From positions 32,001 through 96,000 of the IMG/VR virus record IMGVR_UViG_3300020375_000001: 64,000 nucleotides of DNA. One strand, 5' to 3'. The stretch comes from a virus (taxonomy: Duplodnaviria; Caudoviricetes). This document shows, piece after piece, positions 3,784-63,477 of the stretch. Numbering within the stretch: the stretch's first letter is position 1; every line of letters begins with the position of its first letter. Both the position numbers and the translations under genes were made by a program. The notes under the pieces are model-generated. The model did not search any database and was not told where the DNA came from. It worked only from the letters and a program-made list of their open reading frames with translations.

Positions 3784-6693
3784 ATGGATAATATCCAAGT
3801 TAGTGAATTGCAGGACGACCTTGATAAGTTCCGACGAAATCCCAACGCCGTCCAACGTTCCGTATACAAGCTTCTTGATAAAGCTTCAAAGGGTACACTG
3901 AATGTCATTGACCCCACTAACCCCTTTACTCTACTACTAGAGTCCGCAGCGGTTATGGCAGCCGATTCCATCAGTGAGTGTGAAAGTCTAACCCGTCGTA
4001 CTTATCCTAAACTGGTAAGTACCGAAGATGACTTGTATGGGCATATTTCCGATTTGGAATATGTTGGTGTATGGGGTAGTCCAAGTCGTGACCTCTTCAC
4101 GTTTGCATTTAACGTGGCGGAGTTACGTAGTCTTGCGAAGACTGTTCCGGGAACTAACAACACTAAGTTAGTTATTCCACGTGAATCCCGTGTCACCGTG
4201 GCTGGTGCAAACTTCAGTTTCGTATACCCCATTGAAATTATTTTCTCTGGGGCTGAATCGATTAGCATTCTTTACGATACAAGTGAACAGTCACCGTTCA
4301 TGGCACTGGAGACTAACGTTATCGACTACCGTCTACACAGACACCAAGGTAGTGAGATGTTAATGTTCCAAGTGCCGGGTTTGCAGTATAGCGTAGAATC
4401 GTCCGTAGCCACCGTGTCAAGCGCAAGTGGCTTTAGTACGACTAAGACCATTCGCGATTACTTATATTACTGCAGAGTGTTTCATCGCCACACTGGTGGC
4501 GATTGGGAAGAGATGGTTACTACTCACTCTGGTCGCGTATACGACAATGGTATCCCTACGGCCACATTGAAACTGGCCGACGGCACGTTGCGTGTTAAGA
4601 TTCCTGAGATTTATTTCAACAAGGGATTAATCGGTGCAGAAGTTCGCATTGATGTCTACACCACTAAAGGTAATATCTCGCTGTCGCTCAGCGAGTACCC
4701 ATATACTGCCGTCCAAAGTAAGTGGATAGATTTAAACAACACGGACAATGGTCGCTACACTGCCCCTCTGTCTCAGATTACCCAAATGGCAATTGCCGGT
4801 AGTTCTGTAACTAAGGGTGGTAGTAATGGTCTGTCGTTTGAGGAGTTGCAAGACCGTACGGTTCGTAACTCCACTTACAAACCAGCACCGGTCACTGAAT
4901 TTGACTTGACCAATACGCTGAAAGACCGTGGTTATGATGTACTGAGCGTGGTGGATAACATAACTGACCGTACATTCCTCGCATCTCGCACTGTACCGGC
5001 TCCTGAGCGTGGTTTAAGCTCTAGCCCCATTGGCACTACTGTTGAGTCAATAAAGGTCTGGTCAGAGCTTTTACAGACGTTGTCGACTGCCTACTACGCT
5101 AACAAGATTTGGAGCATCATGCCTAACACGTTGTATAAACGAAATGGTGTGGGTATCAGTTTTGTGAGTGACCTTGAGCGGGAAGCGTTGGAGCAGGCAA
5201 GTGGCGATGTGCTAATCTCTTTACTGGAACAAGAAAGTTATTTCTTCAGTCCGTACCTTACCGTTTTAGACACTAACGACGATGTCTTTAGTTACAACAA
5301 CTACTACATCGATAACCCAACGGTGAACAATCGTTACTTCGGTGCAGCTAACAGTAAAGTGGATTATAAAGCTACCTTAAGTGCAATGTCGCTATACCGT
5401 ACATTCGATGGCTATGAATTAGCAGTAACCGTAAAAGGTTCGGTAGGACATGAAAAACTGCATCCGTCTAAAGTTGGTTTGCAGTTAGCGTTCCGTCCGG
5501 GTGGTCAGGAGCAACGTACTTACGTGGAGGGTGTCAACTACGGTCGTGATGTAGACGGTAACTTAATATTCCGTTTCCCCATCAACACGAAGTTTGAAAT
5601 CCACAAAGGTCACAAACTCTTTGCCACTAACTTCAATGCGGTGATTGATGATACTTTACTCTACCCCATTGAGCCTGATACGGAGTTTGACTTTATCCAT
5701 TACGTAACTGACGTTGGTTTATCTACCGACAAGCGAGACGACCTACACAACCTTCTGGGTACGCCATTTGCTGCTGAAGACGCAATCGTAATTACGCATG
5801 AAACGGCTAACCTACGTTTGTTCGAAAGCATGGATGGATTAATCAACCGTTCACGGGTATCGATTAACGAGCCTAATTACGAAGTGTGGGACCGTGACGT
5901 ACCAATGCTTTACAGTGAGGACATTTACGAACGTGAGCCCGATTCCGGCTTTATCAAGTTAGTTGAGGTGGATGGGCAGTTTGAAGGTATCTTACTTCAC
6001 TCTAAAGGTGACCCTGTCATGGATTCGGAAACTGGTGGACCGGTTTACCAATTCCGCCAAGGGGATTACAAGCTGGACGAGCACGGTGAACGTATTCCTG
6101 TTGGTGGGAGCAGTGAGACGTACTTCATTGAACAAATTCTGTTTGATGGTCGTTATCGTTACTCTACAGAAACAGGAACTAATGCATACGTTCGTACTGT
6201 GGCTGAAAGTATTGTAGATTGGGTACAAACAGACATTGGTGACATCAGTGGTAAGCTTCTGGCTCGTACTGACCTGATGTTCTCACCTAAAGCAAACAGT
6301 GGGACCATTACCGTGTACTCAGTACAAGGTGAGCCAAAACAAATCAGTGCTGGCATTAGTGTTCGTGTTGATTTGTACGTTAGCTTTAATGCGTACTCAA
6401 ACGCTGCAATTCGTAAGAGCCTCAACGCTTCGGTAAAAGAGGTGGTCATTAATGAATTGGCTAAGTCTAAAATCTCAACGGGTTCTATTCACGATAAGCT
6501 CCGTAAAGTTGTCAGTGATGACGTGGTGACCATTAAGGTGCACTCGTTCAACGATGACTCTACATTGGATGCATTTGTAGTGGACAACGACTCAGTAGGT
6601 TGTAGCCTAGCTAAAGTCTTAGAGCGTCAACCGGATGGTGCCATTGCACTGGTCGATGATTTGGACATTAAATTCATTAGACATACAGACTAA
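3784..6693 (+). CDS. Large baseplate wedge-like structural protein (phiKZ gp87-like)
   Basis: 969 aa; GGSNGLSFEELQDR segment resembles baseplate J/gp6-type proteins; synteny. Confidence 0.55.
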   Translation: MDNIQVSELQDDLDKFRRNPNAVQRSVYKLLDKASKGTLNVIDPTNPFTLLLESAAVMAADSISECESLTRRTYPKLVSTEDDLYGHISDLEYVGVWGSPSRDLFTFAFNVAELRSLAKTVPGTNNTKLVIPRESRVTVAGANFSFVYPIEIIFSGAESISILYDTSEQSPFMALETNVIDYRLHRHQGSEMLMFQVPGLQYSVESSVATVSSASGFSTTKTIRDYLYYCRVFHRHTGGDWEEMVTTHSGRVYDNGIPTATLKLADGTLRVKIPEIYFNKGLIGAEVRIDVYTTKGNISLSLSEYPYTAVQSKWIDLNNTDNGRYTAPLSQITQMAIAGSSVTKGGSNGLSFEELQDRTVRNSTYKPAPVTEFDLTNTLKDRGYDVLSVVDNITDRTFLASRTVPAPERGLSSSPIGTTVESIKVWSELLQTLSTAYYANKIWSIMPNTLYKRNGVGISFVSDLEREALEQASGDVLISLLEQESYFFSPYLTVLDTNDDVFSYNNYYIDNPTVNNRYFGAANSKVDYKATLSAMSLYRTFDGYELAVTVKGSVGHEKLHPSKVGLQLAFRPGGQEQRTYVEGVNYGRDVDGNLIFRFPINTKFEIHKGHKLFATNFNAVIDDTLLYPIEPDTEFDFIHYVTDVGLSTDKRDDLHNLLGTPFAAEDAIVITHETANLRLFESMDGLINRSRVSINEPNYEVWDRDVPMLYSEDIYEREPDSGFIKLVEVDGQFEGILLHSKGDPVMDSETGGPVYQFRQGDYKLDEHGERIPVGGSSETYFIEQILFDGRYRYSTETGTNAYVRTVAESIVDWVQTDIGDISGKLLARTDLMFSPKANSGTITVYSVQGEPKQISAGISVRVDLYVSFNAYSNAAIRKSLNASVKEVVINELAKSKISTGSIHDKLRKVVSDDVVTIKVHSFNDDSTLDAFVVDNDSVGCSLAKVLERQPDGAIALVDDLDIKFIRHTD

Positions 6694-6726
6694 GACGGCA
6701 TAAGGGGGAGTCCACTAGGACTCCCC
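6694..6726 (-). terminator. Hairpin between convergent genes, followed on minus strand by TTATGCCGTC
   Basis: GGGGAGTCC-acta-GGACTCCCC at 6705-6726; motif at 6694-6703. Confidence 0.7.
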
Positions 6727-14213: not shown

Positions 14214-14338
14214 ATTGTTTTCTGGGAACGACAAAAAAAGAAGGGGCACTAGGCCCCTTCTGATATCCACATTTGGACAGTCTTCGTAGGTTCCAGAGAG
14301 AAACACACCCTACATACTATTGCCTAAAAAACAGGCAA

Positions 14339-14764
14339 TTAACATGGGTCAATTTCAAACACCGTTACTGAAGTGATGTAGTTCAACCGGTTTATGGAAC
14401 TATAGGTGAATGACTCTTTGGCGCTACTAGGCAAGGCAAGCGCCTTAGTATTGAAGATGTCCCTGCACTGACTATATTTCTCAATGTTACGCATGGTGGT
14501 AACTAAGATATGATAATCACCCGTATCAACTTTTAGCTCAACAACCCGCTTATTGGGTTCCTGAATTCTGCTTAGTATAATGGGCTCGAGTTCTGTCTTC
14601 ACTACCCGCTCAAGAATATCGTAGTCAATACCCTTAGCCTTACCATCTTCCCACTTGACAAAATCGGGCCACTTCTCTTTAAACTCAAGTGTTTCCACCG
14701 GGGCAAACTCGTGAGAGATAGAACCATCTGGTTTAGATACGTTAACAACTTTGATACTGTACAT
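14339..14764 (-). CDS. Hypothetical protein
   Basis: 141-aa ORF, GGAAGG upstream, early-type motif at 14814. Confidence 0.6.
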   Translation of the reverse strand: MYSIKVVNVSKPDGSISHEFAPVETLEFKEKWPDFVKWEDGKAKGIDYDILERVVKTELEPIILSRIQEPNKRVVELKVDTGDYHILVTTMRNIEKYSQCRDIFNTKALALPSSAKESFTYSSINRLNYITSVTVFEIDPC

Positions 14765-60124: not shown

Positions 60125-60376
60125 CTAGTCCGTTGTGTGGACGTATACCTTATCGTCAGGGGTAAACACCGGTAACGTTGCTGTAAACGTAGTAGCTACT
60201 TGGAGTGTCCCATATACTTTATTCAGATGGGCAATTATCCCTTCGGGCATGTCCCCGCTTCCCAACACAATGTAGATGTGTTCTGGGTCGCAGAGCTTTC
60301 TGGTTTGTAAGAAGTCTCCCTTCTCAGATTTCCCCACCACCTCGATATCGTCAGATACAACTATAATAAGTTTCAT
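60125..60376 (-). CDS. Small early protein
   Basis: 83 aa, AGGAAAGG RBS, early promoter at 60408-60419. Confidence 0.6.
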   Translation of the reverse strand: MKLIIVVSDDIEVVGKSEKGDFLQTRKLCDPEHIYIVLGSGDMPEGIIAHLNKVYGTLQVATTFTATLPVFTPDDKVYVHTTD

Positions 60377-60437
60377 TACCTTTCCTTTTATTTGTTTACT
60401 TCACCAAGATAATATATCTTTATAAAAAAATAGGTAA

Positions 60438-60943
60438 GACGGCATAAGCGACGGCATCGGCCGTCACATACTTAGATGTTCTAGTCAATGTTCTAATGGA
60501 TATTGACCACGGGGGAATTATCGCTTATGCACTTTCTTATCACCCTACTAGAGGTAATGCTTACAAATCCATTGGGGCGTAATGTAAGACATCTCTCGTT
60601 CGAAGCAGTTAGTCCTTGTGGACCACTATAACCAATTCCCATTTAAGGGAGCTTTGTGTTTGCCAGATTGTAATTTTTTAAAAACCGTTAGAACTGGTCC
60701 GAGGCGGGCGCTCCTAATTAAAGGAACCCCCGACTCTTTCCAGCCTGGTTCAACCCCGGCAGGGTACCGCTAGCTTACATGGGCACTTTCGTCGTTGGTG
60801 AAGTGTGCCTCTGCCGTCAGCGCACGGCTCAGAGTCATGGTGTAAGGCGAAATTGAAAAACTCCCACACCAGAGAATCAGCTGCGTCCCCGCCGGGGTAA
60901 CCACAGCAACGCCGACGAGAACCTTAAAAGTACACCCGTCTAC
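60438..60943 (-). ncRNA. Unidentified structured non-coding RNA candidate (~500 nt)
   Basis: No ORF; about ten consecutive stems; G-U pairs form only on the minus strand; promoter-like AAAAATAC/TATG at the 5' end and a terminal hairpin at the 3' end. Confidence 0.55.
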
Positions 60944-60970
60944 ATACTATAGGTATTTTTAACTTAACTT

Positions 60971-61960
60971 TTATAAAATCAAGTCAGTGTCTGCATCGAT
61001 TTGGTCGGTGCCCGACAATACTCTACGTGTATTAACGTTGCGCGATTCAGTAGCACGACTGTAATTGTCTACTTCTTCTTGGCGGTATTTGATTAAATCA
61101 GCAATACCATCTACCGAGATGATGTAGTGTAGTTCAGTCAGCCCATCTTCCAGACCATCCAAACGATAACCAATACAAGAGTATTCAGGCATCAGTTCAG
61201 GAGCCGGTGCATCTTTATCAACCAGTAGCGTCGCCACTGAGATAGGTGCGTCGATTTGCTTTGCTACTTCCACCGAATCACAAATCTCAAGTACTGACAG
61301 TTGAGCCGGTACTGAAGTTGAGTGATTATAGAAAGCCCAGTTACGGACATCACGTTGGTCAAGCTCATCGTTCTGCTGTGAACACAGAGCAGCCATGGCT
61401 TGGATTGTTGCATTACAAGTTGCGTCTACCTGACTACGTCGAGTAGTTGCACTGTTGTGGTGGTAACTGATGATAGTTGGTTTATCCAACGAGTCACCAA
61501 TAGCCGCCAGAGACTTCAGGGTGTTCAGACTGTTTAGTGCAGTGATAGATGACTCAGAAGAACCTACTGCAATAGCGATGGCAGGAATACCACGCTTCAA
61601 CAGTTCTTTAACCAGAAGAGGCCCTACTACAGAACCCGTACCGCCAGAGGTAGAGAAGACAACAATGTTGAAACCAGCAGGTGGTTGTTTCTGCAATGCC
61701 GCACGAATGTTTTCGTTAATTACCGCAGCGTTGTCACGGCGAACTTTACCCGAACCCTCACCTTCATCTGTAGCTAAGAAGAACGGAACGTCATTCTCTT
61801 TGTGCTCAGCGGTATAGTTAGACGTTGAGGAGTCAATCAGACCCACTTCAATGTCGGAGTAACCGCGACCAGATGATTTGTTGGCGAATGGGGATACGAT
61901 GTTGATACCGCAGCCACCACAACCGTAAAGACGGATAGTGCTTTTGTTAGAATCACTCAT
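60971..61960 (-). CDS. phuZ: PhuZ tubulin/FtsZ-family spindle GTPase
   Basis: GCGGCGINI, GEGSGK, SGGTGSVVGP signature; short acidic C-terminal tail ending LIL. Confidence 0.92.
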   Translation of the reverse strand: MSDSNKSTIRLYGCGGCGINIVSPFANKSSGRGYSDIEVGLIDSSTSNYTAEHKENDVPFFLATDEGEGSGKVRRDNAAVINENIRAALQKQPPAGFNIVVFSTSGGTGSVVGPLLVKELLKRGIPAIAIAVGSSESSITALNSLNTLKSLAAIGDSLDKPTIISYHHNSATTRRSQVDATCNATIQAMAALCSQQNDELDQRDVRNWAFYNHSTSVPAQLSVLEICDSVEVAKQIDAPISVATLLVDKDAPAPELMPEYSCIGYRLDGLEDGLTELHYIISVDGIADLIKYRQEEVDNYSRATESRNVNTRRVLSGTDQIDADTDLIL

Positions 61961-61977
61961 AGTTGATTTCCTTCAGT

Positions 61978-62676
61978 TTACGTGTATTGGGAATAATCAA
62001 TGTTAACGTAGTTACCCTTTTTATCTACAGGATAGCGCATAACCGTGTTAACGTGAATTTGGTGACTGGCTCGTTTCTTGGCAGCTTCAATTTGCTGATA
62101 CCACCAATCACGAGGTCGTACAGTTACGTGGGCATTTCGACCATCAGGTAAGAATGTTACCGCCGGACCAAGATGAATTGTAACATGCAGTACCTTAGTT
62201 GTTAGATTAAACAGTTCATCTAAGAACCAAGGAATGTCTTGTGCTGGAATATGTTCTAACACATCCGTGCACACCACCATCTCCCCAGGGAAGGTAGGAT
62301 ACTCAGAGAGCTCCTCGATTCCAGGGTCGTACATTACAACGTAAGGACGGCCAAGGTAATCATAAACAGAGTCATGAACCGGACTCATTTTATTACCTTT
62401 GTCGTCTTTCTGCACAATCGTTTTGTCGATATATGGCTTTACGAAGAACGCATCGGGGTTACCACAACCAAAGTTAATAAGAGAACGGCAATCGTTCTTA
62501 TCCATTAACCGTTTAATAACAGGAGCTTCTTTACCATACTCCCCGTTAGCAAACATCTCTTTTGGAGCGCGTTTGGTTCCGTTGGCTAAAGACCCACCTT
62601 CAGTTGAGTAGAGCAGGCGATACTGCTCTGCGAGTGAGAGGTAGTCCTCGCTCGGATTTTGTTTTGTGTATTTCAT
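61978..62676 (-). CDS. Class I SAM-dependent methyltransferase-like protein
   Basis: LINFGCG (motif I), YDPG, VVCTDVLEHIP, NAHVTV. Confidence 0.75.
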   Translation of the reverse strand: MKYTKQNPSEDYLSLAEQYRLLYSTEGGSLANGTKRAPKEMFANGEYGKEAPVIKRLMDKNDCRSLINFGCGNPDAFFVKPYIDKTIVQKDDKGNKMSPVHDSVYDYLGRPYVVMYDPGIEELSEYPTFPGEMVVCTDVLEHIPAQDIPWFLDELFNLTTKVLHVTIHLGPAVTFLPDGRNAHVTVRPRDWWYQQIEAAKKRASHQIHVNTVMRYPVDKKGNYVNIDYSQYT

Positions 62677-62769
62677 TTACCTAAACTCCGCCATGTGGCT
62701 AGACATAAATAACTATAGAAGTGTAAAAATTATATCGTCAAAAGAAAGGGACTAAGTGCCCCTAACTTT

Positions 62770-63477
62770 TTACAATTTACTATAGCTGGTAAACTGCAGT
62801 TCAGGGAATTGCTTCTCTTCACTTGTGTCGGCCAGGTACGTATTTAACGCACGACGGTCATGCATCAACTTAGCAATCTTTCCATCGGTTGTTTTCTTTG
62901 GCAACAGCCTGTCTTCATCATTACTGATAAAGCGTTCTTCTAACAAGACGTCCAATAAGAACTCTTGTACTGCATTTAGATAACGTCGAGCTTTACGTTC
63001 ATCGTCAGAGACCAGTGGCTCAACCTGTAATTCCATCCACGCTACTTTAGAACTGGGTGGGGGATTAACAAGCATGAAACAACGAGTACGGTCACGATAG
63101 AATGCAAAGTCACCAATCTCAGCATCTTCTAAATGCTGTAGGTCGGATACGTCCTCTATAGGCCACTGTGAGACAGAGACAGGGATACCACCAGGGGTTA
63201 CACCATCTCCTACCCAGAAGCGTCTGTCATCAGTCGTAAAGAGCGGTTCACCAAGGTCAGGAACAAAGGTAGGACGTGCCTCATTAAGACCAACTCGCAT
63301 CCGTATAGGTATTACTTTAGCGGTCTTTTTCTCAAGGGGAAGCTGATTCAGAGGGGCTGGTAAGCTTTTCTTCTGAGATACATCCCCTTTCTTGTCGCCC
63401 TGTTTGATAGCAGCCCTCGGACTTACATTACGGCGCGACCTTTGTGGTTTGTTGTTTATTTCACCAGACATTTTCAA
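62770..63477 (-). CDS. Protein with Mtd-N/hyaluronidase-N-like module (probable virion or fibre-associated)
   Basis: GEPLFTTDDRRFWVGDGVTPGG motif. Confidence 0.55.
   Translation of the reverse strand: MKMSGEINNKPQRSRRNVSPRAAIKQGDKKGDVSQKKSLPAPLNQLPLEKKTAKVIPIRMRVGLNEARPTFVPDLGEPLFTTDDRRFWVGDGVTPGGIPVSVSQWPIEDVSDLQHLEDAEIGDFAFYRDRTRCFMLVNPPPSSKVAWMELQVEPLVSDDERKARRYLNAVQEFLLDVLLEERFISNDEDRLLPKKTTDGKIAKLMHDRRALNTYLADTSEEKQFPELQFTSYSKL

What the first reader, a model, noticed from the sequence alone, without database searches (positions are those of the whole stretch)
60438..60943. Large unidentified structured RNA encoded directly downstream of phuZ
Seen: ~500 nt with no ORF, GC-richer in 60690-60940, and dense consecutive stems: 60914-19/60935-40, 60880-83/60904-07 enclosing CCCC/GGGG, 60839-43/60866-70, 60813-17/60824-28, 60782-86/60805-09, 60637-40/60647-50, 60612-15/60620-23, 60560-65/60583-88, 60484-89/60502-07, 60450-55/60460-65, plus a 10-bp long-range pair 60442-51/60521-30. 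In three stems the imperfect pairs are G-U on the minus strand but A-C on plus, fixing the strand. AAAAATAC (60953-60) and TATG (60943-46) mark a plausible start; a hairpin, TTATGCCGTC and a T-run mark the end. It matches no RNA family I can recognise with confidence; faint tmRNA-like patches are noted under rejected. Inference: a novel jumbo-phage ncRNA (or structured phuZ 3' UTR), possibly a scaffold for the spindle or nucleus, or a decoy RNA.
Basis: partly seen in the sequence, partly recalled or inferred. Interest (0 to 1): 0.8.

Follow-up and report, generated by a model that had tools for sequence, protein, structure and literature searches.

The report
New large RNA beside phage tubulin
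Directly after the tubulin gene phuZ, this uncultured marine nucleus-forming jumbo phage encodes a roughly 500-nt, elaborately folded non-coding RNA. At least nine related phages keep it through compensatory base changes, ocean RNA libraries contain it, it matches no catalogued RNA family, and its function is unknown.

Summary
Window 60445-60943 (minus strand, same as phuZ) is a discrete non-coding RNA gene.

- **Start:** an invariant CTATAGTATG, which contains the TATG consensus of phiKZ-type non-virion RNA polymerase late promoters.
- **End:** a hairpin followed by CTTATGCCGTCT. This is the published phiKZ terminator motif, and it recurs 26 times in this genome.
- **Family:** nine distinct members, from IMG/VR, ENA/TARA and Logan assemblies. 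They share conserved unpaired motifs and strongly covarying helices. P1 has 9 of 11 positions compensatory, the 16-23-bp long-range P3 has 10 of 18, and P4 has 7 of 8. There is no conserved ORF.
- **Expression:** metatranscriptome contigs from four studies contain it. One 489-nt contig spans 60447-60935, almost exactly the predicted transcript.
- **Not a known RNA:** Rfam (E up to 10), ARAGORN, nhmmer and a covariance model assign it to no known family. It is not a tmRNA, RNase P RNA or intron, and it is not GOLLD or ROOL.

Function is unknown. My best guess is a very stable, stoichiometric scaffold or decoy RNA made late in infection.

Unrelated-looking but equally structured RNAs sit after phuZ in distant chimallivirus clades. 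I checked one of these myself. Earlier notes of this scan report the same pattern on other DNA.

The parts
60943..60952 (-). Promoter-like motif CTATAGTATG. The G at 60943 is the predicted transcription start.
   Evidence: Invariant or nearly so in all homologues and in the more distant positional analogues. TATG with G as the start is the phiKZ nvRNAP late-promoter consensus (PMC10612078). RNA-library contigs begin at 60935 and 60933.
60914..60940 (-). P1, the 5' hairpin (GACGGG ... CUCGUC).
   Evidence: 9 of 11 indexed pair positions show compensatory changes across nine members. Cognate strands give -10.3 kcal/mol against -4.3 for between-subgroup strands.
60900..60910 (-). Conserved motif A1, GUUGCUGUGGU. 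Its partner is unresolved (UAGUAG/GGCAA at 60532-60550, or ACUGC at 60598-60608).
   Evidence: Invariant except for one base in 9 members. Duplex scans give competing registers.
60887..60903 (-). P3, 5' strand of the long-range helix.
   Evidence: Pairs with 60746-60764. The helix has 16-23 bp at -25 to -37 kcal/mol in all nine members and in L014. 10 of 18 positions are compensatory.
60838..60871 (-). P4 hairpin with the conserved 15-17-nt loop AGUUU..UUCAAUUUCG.
   Evidence: The loop sequence is kept while 7 of 8 stem positions covary. Cognate strands give -10.8 against -3.7 kcal/mol.
60782..60828 (-). P5 and P6 hairpins inside the P3 domain.
   Evidence: Present at the same place with changed sequence in relatives.
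60746..60764 (-). P3, 3' strand.
   Evidence: See the P3 5' strand.
60692..60745 (-). P7-P9 peripheral domain. It is variable: replaced or much reduced in L010, L011 and L012.
60663..60673 (-). Conserved unpaired motif A3, (A)UACAAUCUGG.
   Evidence: Nearly invariant in nine members.
60637..60650 (-). P10 hairpin, CCC-UUAAnU-GGG.
   Evidence: Conserved, with two covarying positions. Part of covariance model R1.
60598..60628 (-). P11 hairpin followed by the conserved motif A5, CUGCUUCGAAC.
   Evidence: 5 of 6 stem positions are compensatory. Model R1 scores 54-87 bits in all nine members and nowhere else significantly.
60532..60590 (-). P12 variable hairpin, then the conserved A-rich motif A6, UAGUAGGG(C/U)-A-rich.
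60442..60530 (-). 3' domain. P14 (GCAUAAGCGA with UCGCUUAUGC) encloses P13, P13b and the terminator hairpin GACGGC-CGAU-GCCGUC (60450-60465).
   Evidence: P14 pairs covary (C-G to U-A and others). The hairpin is conserved. RNA-library contigs end at 60447 and 60441.
60437..60448 (-). Terminator-associated motif CUUAUGCCGUCU.
   Evidence: 26 sites in the genome against 3 for the control. 25 of the 26 stand directly after a GC-rich hairpin. It matches the published phiKZ terminator motif ...YTTATKYYGT (PMC10914365).
60971..61960 (-). phuZ (329 aa), the upstream neighbour in every member.

Best explanation
Window 60943 to about 60445 (minus strand) is the gene of a roughly 500-nt non-coding RNA of a previously uncatalogued family. 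The family is carried by a clade of uncultured marine nucleus-forming jumbo phages (chimalliviruses).

**Shown**
- It is conserved in at least nine distinct phage genomes, always directly after phuZ.
- It has no conserved ORF.
- It folds into a multi-domain structure: a 5' hairpin P1; a long-range helix P3 enclosing P4-P6; a variable P7-P9 arm; hairpins P10-P13; and a 3' clamp P14 around the terminator hairpin. The helices covary, while about seven unpaired motifs stay nearly invariant.
- It is present in marine RNA libraries.

**Inferred from published phiKZ signals**
- It is transcribed late, inside the phage nucleus, by the phage's non-virion RNA polymerase from the TATG motif. Read-through from phuZ adds to this.
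- It ends at a phiKZ-type intrinsic terminator.

**Inferred from anatomy**
- Both ends are locked in helices: P1 lies 3 nt from the 5' end, and the mature 3' end is paired in P14. That would shield the RNA from 5'-end-dependent and 3' exonucleolytic decay and let it accumulate.

**Most likely mode of action (inference only)**
- It acts as an abundant, stoichiometric structural RNA, meaning a protein-binding scaffold or a decoy for a phage or host factor. Its invariant loops and junctions would be the contact surfaces.
- It is probably not an antisense regulator or a translated message.
For: - **Conservation and synteny:**
- **Covariation:** RNAalifold finds 22 of 108 pairs compensatory in 3 sequences and 27 of 69 in 7 sequences. 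Anchor-indexed counts give P1 9/11, P3 10/18, P4 7/8 and P11 5/6.
- **Co-evolving strands:** cognate strands pair far better than strands swapped between subgroups. P3 gives -29.0 against -17.7 kcal/mol and P4 gives -10.8 against -3.7.
- **No conserved ORF:**
- **Strand:** fixed by conserved G-U pairs.
- **Promoter and terminator:**, with PMC10612078 and PMC10914365.
- **RNA libraries:** seven RNA runs from four studies hold the stretch. The X17 contig covers 60447-60935 at word depth 59.5, while neighbouring phage contigs lie at 2-11. X19 and X20 show only RNA-internal contigs within the 6 kb laid. phuZ itself is found in the RNA runs of only two of those four studies.
- **No antisense role:** no enrichment of sites complementary to the conserved loops in the phage genome.
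Against: - Function is not tested at all.
- The RNA evidence is from assembled contigs. They give neither strand nor true ends, cannot rank abundance rigorously, and the runs were chosen because they hold this stretch (caveats printed).
- In run X14 one contig bridges phuZ and the RNA, so part of the signal may be phuZ 3' UTR or DNA.
- The global fold is not settled. The partner of GUUGCUG is ambiguous, and no pseudoknot could be shown.
- Nine sequences give limited statistical power, and I made the helix tables from per-sequence duplex predictions.
- The promoter motif TATAGTATG is not enriched genome-wide (22 sites at up to 1 mismatch against 44 for the control).
Confidence: 0.6

Rival explanations
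1. It is only the structured 3' untranslated region of the phuZ messenger, or a fragment processed from it. Its job would be to stabilise or localise phuZ mRNA in cis, not to act as an RNA gene of its own.
For: The nine core members have no terminator between the phuZ stop and the element. The X14 contig 60662-62704 bridges the element, phuZ and the gene upstream. The element always follows phuZ.
Against: An invariant TATG promoter-like motif sits between the phuZ stop and the first helix, while the sequence just upstream of it varies. The X17 contig stops 36 nt short of phuZ, and phuZ is poorly represented in that run: 18% of its sampled words against 98% for the element. In L015, phuZ has its own terminator before a new promoter-like motif and a structured stretch. 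About 500 nt of covarying multi-domain structure is far more than 3' end protection needs.
Confidence: 0.15
2. It is a ribozyme or other catalytic or sensing RNA of a new class, for example self-processing, ligand-sensing or RNA-modifying. The invariant junction nucleotides would form an active site.
For: The pattern of covarying helices with invariant unpaired junctions and loops is what ribozymes and large riboswitch-like RNAs show. Two T-loop-like pentads (UUCAA, UUCGA) occur in invariant elements (read directly from the sequence).
Against: No match to any ribozyme or intron family in Rfam, even at E up to 10. The phage genome has no tRNA genes that an RNase P-like activity would serve. The contigs run uninterrupted across the element, with no joints. 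Presence in small RNA libraries fits a stoichiometric role better than a catalytic one.
Confidence: 0.08
3. It is a highly diverged member of a known large RNA family (tmRNA, RNase P RNA, group I or II intron, GOLLD, ROOL, HEARO, 6S) that profile searches miss.
Against: Rfam release 15 gives no hit at gathering score or at E up to 10, in the window and in 11 homologous loci. ARAGORN finds no tmRNA in the window, the genome or 17 loci. There is no CCA-ending acceptor stem and no conserved tag ORF. phuZ is uninterrupted, so there is no exon context for an intron. The genome has no reverse transcriptase and no Ro60.
Confidence: 0.04
4. It is a DNA-level element (replication origin, packaging or partition site, or protein-binding array), and the helices are incidental.
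For: The plus strand folds about as well as the minus strand in single-sequence MFE (z -3.6 against -3.2). The element lies at the boundary of two transcription units.
Against: Many conserved pairs are G-U on the phuZ strand only. It has promoter- and terminator-type signals at its two ends and is present in RNA libraries. No repeat arrays were seen in the sequence or alignments.
Confidence: 0.03

Closest known systems
GOLLD and ROOL (large ornate non-coding RNAs of bacteria, prophages and phages; Rfam families)
   Same: Size class (about 500-800 nt). Multi-domain fold with covarying helices and invariant loops. Phage association. High expression. No known function. From my own knowledge, recent cryo-EM work shows that these assemble into homo-oligomeric cages.
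   Different: No sequence or structure match in Rfam at E up to 10. Not next to tRNA genes: this phage has none. Found in nucleus-forming jumbo phages, always after phuZ. Oligomerisation is untested here.
phi29 pRNA (packaging RNA)
   Same: A phage-encoded, abundant structural RNA that acts as a stoichiometric part of a protein machine (my own knowledge).
   Different: pRNA is about 170 nt, has a different fold, and occurs in small podoviruses. No homology was detected, and no link to the packaging genes is seen here.
Small RNAs mapped in phiKZ and 201phi2-1 (for example sRNA005 upstream of the gp182/gp277 tail gene; PMC11512511)
   Same: Non-coding RNAs of chimalliviruses that are conserved by position relative to a conserved gene, bounded by phage promoters and phiKZ-type terminators.
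   Different: Those are under 250 nt and mostly derive from 5' UTRs. None is described after phuZ (the word phuZ does not occur in that paper). Cultured LucasX, Eowyn and Noxifer have no comparable gap after phuZ.
tmRNA
   Same: Similar length. A UUCGAA patch that recalls a T-loop.
   Different: No tRNA-like domain, no CCA end, no tag reading frame. ARAGORN and Rfam are negative.
Positional analogues after phuZ in distant chimallivirus clades (L071/L079/L083; earlier scan notes e1-5322514, e1-5335867, e1-3430591, e1-5322506)
   Same: A 400-750-nt ORF-poor, unusually stable stretch directly after phuZ, ending in a phiKZ-type terminator. In L071/L079/L083, 14 compensatory pairs occur among sequences that are 90-95% identical.
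   Different: No detectable sequence or motif similarity to this family. The first third of the L071-type element also carries an Arg-rich ORF. Homology is therefore unproven.

Membership tests
tmRNA | tRNA-like domain with an acceptor stem ending in CCA, plus a T-arm | tested here: not met
   ARAGORN finds none in the window, the whole genome or 17 related loci. The RNA ends in a terminator hairpin plus UUAU, not CCA.
tmRNA | Conserved tag-peptide reading frame | tested here: not met
   No ORF of 20 or more codons is shared by 8 or more of the 9 members anywhere in the alignment.
Any Rfam 15 family (including RNase P, group I/II introns, 6S, SRP, GOLLD, ROOL, HEARO, OLE, raiA, IMES) | Covariance-model score at or near the family's gathering threshold | tested here: not met
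   No hit inside the element at gathering score or at E up to 10, in the window or in 11 homologous loci.
Group I/II intron | Interrupts a host gene, with flanking exons that join | tested here: not met
   phuZ is full length (329 aa, profile coverage 3-318 of 323) and ends before the element. RNA contigs show no joints.
Retron, DRT or other reverse-transcriptase-associated ncRNA | Adjacent or genome-encoded reverse transcriptase | tested here: not met
   No RVT_1 match in the 207,748-bp genome.
Y RNA / YrlA | Ro60 (TROVE) partner gene and a tRNA-like module | tested here: not met
   No TROVE match in the genome. No tRNA-like module by ARAGORN.
phiKZ-type intrinsic terminator (Putzeys et al. 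2024) | GC-rich hairpin followed directly by TTAT (motif ...YTTATKYYGT) | tested here: met
   GACGGC-CGAT-GCCGTC, then G, then CTTATGCCGT, at 60439-60465. The same motif follows hairpins at 25 other sites in the genome. Motif text from PMC10914365.
phiKZ-type nvRNAP late promoter | TATG with G as the transcription start | tested here: inconclusive
   TATG is invariant, within CTATAGTATG, in all members, and RNA contigs begin 8-10 nt downstream. The start site is not mapped and the polymerase was not tested. Consensus from PMC10612078.
New family proposed here (phuZ-adjacent RNA, marine chimallivirus clade) | P1, GUUGCUGUGGU, long-range P3 enclosing P4 with loop AGUUU..UUCAAUUUCG, ACAAUCUGG, P10 CCCUUAAnUGGG, P11, CUGCUUCGAA, UAGUAGGGC-A-rich, terminator clamp | tested here: met
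   All elements are present in the window and in eight other distinct genomes: nhmmer E 1e-62 or better, model R1 54-87 bits. L014 (PhuZ 58% identical) keeps P1, P3 and a P4-like loop only.

The most novel reading that the evidence does not exclude
A large, fast-evolving structured RNA is an ancient syntenic partner of phuZ across many Chimalliviridae. Under this reading, the marine family here, the L071-type element and the analogues noted elsewhere in this scan are one lineage or one functional class. The RNA would work with the phage's cell-biology machinery, for example as a self-assembling RNA scaffold or cage in or at the phage nucleus, or as an RNA component of capsid trafficking and spindle function. 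That would make it the first RNA component of the jumbo-phage 'cell-like' organisation.
Probability: 0.12. Interest if true: 0.9.

Novelty: new variant of a known kind. Interest (0 to 1): 0.75.

Why it matters
Large, intricately folded non-coding RNAs are rare, and each class found so far (ribosome, RNase P, introns, tmRNA, OLE, GOLLD, ROOL) has turned out to do something sophisticated.

- This candidate has comparative support and evidence of expression, in a virus group known for building a nucleus and a tubulin spindle inside bacteria.
- No structural or regulatory RNA of this size has been described for that group.
- It appears in RNA libraries from several ocean studies, so it is not a rarity of one sample.
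- Structured RNAs recur at the same position after phuZ in distant clades. This hints at a general and overlooked component of chimallivirus infection.
- The RNA gives a concrete object for structure determination and for knock-down experiments in culturable relatives.

Tried and rejected
- **Rfam:** gathering and E up to 10 searches on the window and 11 loci found nothing in the element.
- **ARAGORN:** no tRNA or tmRNA.
- **blastn against 50,697 phage records:** no match.
- **Motif scans of IMG/VR and JGI metagenomes:** they returned only the same phages plus chance hits in coding regions, L005, L007 and L018-L029.
- **Reach of the family:** nhmmer with the 9-sequence profile and covariance model R1 did not reach the positional analogues L013-L017 or any of about 50 other PhuZ loci. 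A hairpin-loop scan for P4-like loops found none after phuZ elsewhere. Whether L013/L017, L015 and L016 are homologues stays open.
- **Gap survey:** the naive ORF-gap survey was confounded by spurious ORFs. A stricter version still called L077 and L084 gaps, although these hold a small conserved ORF.
- **Promoter motif:** TATAGTATG is not enriched genome-wide.
- **Antisense targets:** none for the conserved loops in the phage genome.
- **Pseudoknots and long-range pairing:** attempts to pin a pseudoknot or the partner of GUUGCUG gave competing registers. Ideas of a loop E module (AGUA/GAA), a P4-loop to A-rich pairing, and palindromic kissing loops (UUCGAA, AAUU, UUAA) were inspected by eye. 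They are not consistently supported across members.
- **Tools missing:** MAFFT Q-INS-i is not installed, and R-scape and Infernal are absent from the script box. Because of the typed-text limit I did not submit a 570-column dot-bracket string to the count of structure pairs. The covariation counts are therefore my own scripts plus RNAalifold.
- **Read laying:** it gave contigs only. Stretches without cover and depth comparisons are not evidence of absence.
- **Complex prediction and protein folding:** not used, because no partner protein is identified.

Full report
**Context.** The window is bases 32001-96000 of a 207,748-bp IMG/VR viral contig with direct terminal repeats. The ORF at 60971-61960 (minus strand) is the phage tubulin PhuZ: PHROG 4733 at E 7e-85, and Pfam Tubulin plus TubZ_C_2. 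Its closest cultured relatives are at most 40% identical, and no phage record shares the DNA. This is therefore an uncultured chimallivirus. Relatives and sequencing runs are marine, one of them a TARA sample.

**The observation.** The 530 nt after phuZ carry only short ORFs of 49 aa or less. GC reaches 0.585, against about 0.42 around it. The stretch folds better than shuffles on both strands, z -3.2 and -3.6. The local stem GCUG/CAGC around CCCC/GGGG is replaced by a long-range helix, P3.

**Relatives.** PhuZ-guided retrieval from IMG/VR, ENA, JGI and Logan assemblies gave loci whose PhuZ is 56-84% identical. Eight further distinct genomes (L009, L002, L032, L030=L031, L003, L012, L010, L011) carry an alignable element of 404-517 nt at the same place. 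nhmmer scores them at E 1e-62 or better.

The alignment alternates between two kinds of blocks. Some are nearly invariant:
- UAUGUAGAC
- CGUUGCUGUGGU
- GAGUUU..UUCAAUUUCG
- AUACAAUCUGG
- CCCUUAAnUGGG
- CUGCUUCGAA
- UAGUAGGGCAAAAAGAAA
- CUUAUGCCGUCU

The others are indel-rich and fold into hairpins of changed sequence. No reading frame is shared. L003 has no ORF of 20 or more codons in its first 372 nt, and no alignment stretch is covered by ORFs in 8 or more of the 9 members.

**Structure.** RNAalifold finds 22 compensatory pairs among 108 in three sequences, and 27 among 69 in seven. I then indexed base pairs from conserved anchors:

| Helix | Compensatory positions |
|---|---|
| P1 | 9 of 11 |
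| P3 | 10 of 18 |
| P4 | 7 of 8 |
| P10 | 2 of 4 |
| P11 | 5 of 6 |

P3 is a 16-23-bp helix of -25 to -37 kcal/mol joining bases about 140 nt apart. Its sequence differs between members: CCCCGGCGGGG/CCCUGCCGGGG in the window, CCCCACGGAAC/GUUCCGUGGGG in L012, and GUUCUCGUGGGG/CUCCACGGGAAC in L011.

As a test that does not assume the pairs, I paired each member's 5' strand with every member's 3' strand. Cognate combinations are much more stable than combinations between subgroups: P1 -10.3 against -4.3, P3 -29.0 against -17.7, and P4 -10.8 against -3.7 kcal/mol.

Conserved G-U pairs fix the strand as that of phuZ. The partner of GUUGCUG and any pseudoknots remain unresolved.

**Ends.** CTATAGTATG directly precedes P1 in every member, and in slightly altered form in the more distant analogues. 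phiKZ's non-virion polymerase uses a TATG promoter with G as the start (PMC10612078).

The 3' end is a hairpin followed by CUUAUGCCGUCU. That 11-mer (up to 1 mismatch) occurs 26 times in the genome, against 3 for the reversed control. In 25 cases it stands right after a GC-rich hairpin, often at gene ends. It equals the published phiKZ terminator motif, a hairpin plus YTTATKYYGT (PMC10914365).

After the terminator comes a conserved TATATTAT element and the ribosome-binding site of the next gene, which differs between phages. The element therefore closes the phuZ transcription unit.

**Expression.** The 514-nt stretch is held by 13 DNA runs and by 7 metatranscriptomic runs from four studies. 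I laid four of the RNA runs on 6 kb:
- X17 has one 489-nt contig at 60447-60935 with word depth 59.5. Its other contigs on the stretch lie at 2-11.
- X19, a run of only 15 million letters, has a single contig at 60607-60933.
- X20 has a single contig at 60756-60906.
- X14 covers the whole region. It has a break at 60250-60440, just past the terminator, and one contig that bridges the element and phuZ.

phuZ itself is found in the RNA runs of only two of the four studies. X17 holds 18% of the phuZ words, against 98% of the element's.

These are contigs. They show presence and are compatible with the predicted ends, but they give neither strand nor rigorous abundance, and the runs were selected with the element as query.

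**What it is not.**
- Rfam 15 gives nothing in the element at E up to 10, in the window or in 11 loci.
- ARAGORN finds no tRNA or tmRNA anywhere in the genome or the loci.
- The genome has no reverse transcriptase and no Ro60 gene.
- phuZ is intact, so the element is not an intron.
- Sites complementary to the invariant loops are not enriched in the phage genome, which argues against a multi-target antisense regulator.
- The jumbo-phage review and transcriptome papers I read describe small RNAs but nothing of this size or position.

**Mechanism.** Shown: a conserved, structured, non-coding, transcribed element bounded by phage-type signals.

Inferred:
- Late transcription in the phage nucleus.
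- High stability. P1 begins 3 nt from the 5' end, and the mature 3' end (…GUCGCUUAU) is paired with AUAAGCGA in P14, next to the terminator hairpin.
- A stoichiometric role as scaffold or decoy. The RNA combines covarying helices with invariant unpaired motifs, turns up even in very small RNA libraries, and shows no antisense targets.

I put about 0.85 on 'a discrete structured RNA gene of a new family' and about 0.3 on the scaffold or decoy mode. The rivals are a pure phuZ 3' UTR function, a new ribozyme or sensor, a diverged known family, and a DNA element. They are weighed in their own sections.

**Beyond the family.** Model R1 and nhmmer find no further members among about 50 other PhuZ loci. 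Cultured LucasX, Eowyn and Noxifer have no large gap after phuZ.

Even so, long ORF-poor stretches with strongly negative folding z-scores follow phuZ in several distant clades:

| Locus | Length after phuZ (nt) | z-score |
|---|---|---|
| L061 | 480 | -8.6 |
| L069 | 668 | -6.8 |
| L071 | 743 | -6.7 |
| L050 | 634 | -6.2 |

L013, L015 and L016 score -4.2 to -5.3. Coding controls run from +1.3 to -1.9, with one at -3.1.

In L071/L079/L083 (PhuZ about 36% identical to the window's), the roughly 690 nt after phuZ show 14 compensatory pairs among sequences that are 90-95% identical, and they end in a phiKZ-type terminator. The first third also carries an Arg-rich ORF.

Two other 'gaps' (L077, L084) turned out to hold a small conserved ORF, so this pattern is a lead, not a rule. 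Earlier notes of this scan describe the same positional pattern on other genomes. I confirmed it for one clade only, and homology between the clade-specific RNAs is unproven.

**Verdict.** This is a real feature and a new RNA family of the 'large ornate RNA' kind, in marine nucleus-forming jumbo phages. Its function is unknown.

Noticed in passing
window 14230-14321 (minus strand): AATAGTATG, like the RNA's promoter motif, is followed by GUAGGGUGUG..., a hairpin GAAGGGGC-CUAG-UGCCCCUUC and a U-run. It lies in the gap between the ORF at 14339-14764 and the next gene. This is a candidate sRNA of about 85 nt. Its start resembles the start of the phuZ-adjacent element of L013/L017 (TATCTATGTAGGGTGTGG).
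   Followed up: partly
whole genome G000 (for example window 6693-6703, 11770, 15028, 21119, 31949, 53263, 56022): The phiKZ-type terminator motif (GC hairpin plus TTATGCCGTCT) occurs 26 times. Several sites are bidirectional, with the motif in inverse orientation on both sides of one hairpin. The same motif ends the phuZ-downstream elements of distant GC-rich clades (L050, L069, L071), so the signal is conserved across very diverged chimalliviruses.
   Followed up: partly
window 60385-60436 (minus strand) and the same place in all relatives: After the terminator comes a conserved CTATTTTATTACAnAACTATATTATC element. It resembles the AT-rich early promoters described for phiKZ-like phages. It is followed by AAAAGGA and a first gene that differs between phages (83 aa here; 52-159 aa elsewhere). 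This looks like a hot spot for gene replacement at the start of an early operon.
   Followed up: no
L077:3630-3780 and L084:3670-3840: In two AT-rich distant clades, the apparent gap after phuZ contains a small conserved coiled-coil-like ORF of about 47-56 aa with a shared EYA.S.V.Y.T.R.NRL motif. Many other clades have a 59-72-aa ORF 10-20 nt after phuZ. A small protein gene is thus another frequent phuZ neighbour.
   Followed up: partly
L015:2514-2600: In this relative (PhuZ 56% identical), phuZ has its own phiKZ-type terminator. Then comes ACTATATTATG and a separate structured stretch of about 270 nt with its own terminator, forming a free-standing transcription unit at the position of the RNA.
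   Followed up: partly
L061:3690-3710: The motif GTATAGTATG recurs about 230 nt after phuZ in a clade whose PhuZ is only 42% identical. TATAGTATG may therefore be an extended promoter consensus shared well beyond this family.
   Followed up: no
window 61978-63477 and all related loci: Upstream of phuZ lie two paralogous genes of about 232-245 aa (weak methyltransferase PHROG hit, faint Mtd_N). A divergently oriented DUF7484 gene also lies upstream in the related loci (not checked in the window). The synteny is conserved in every locus fetched.
   Followed up: no
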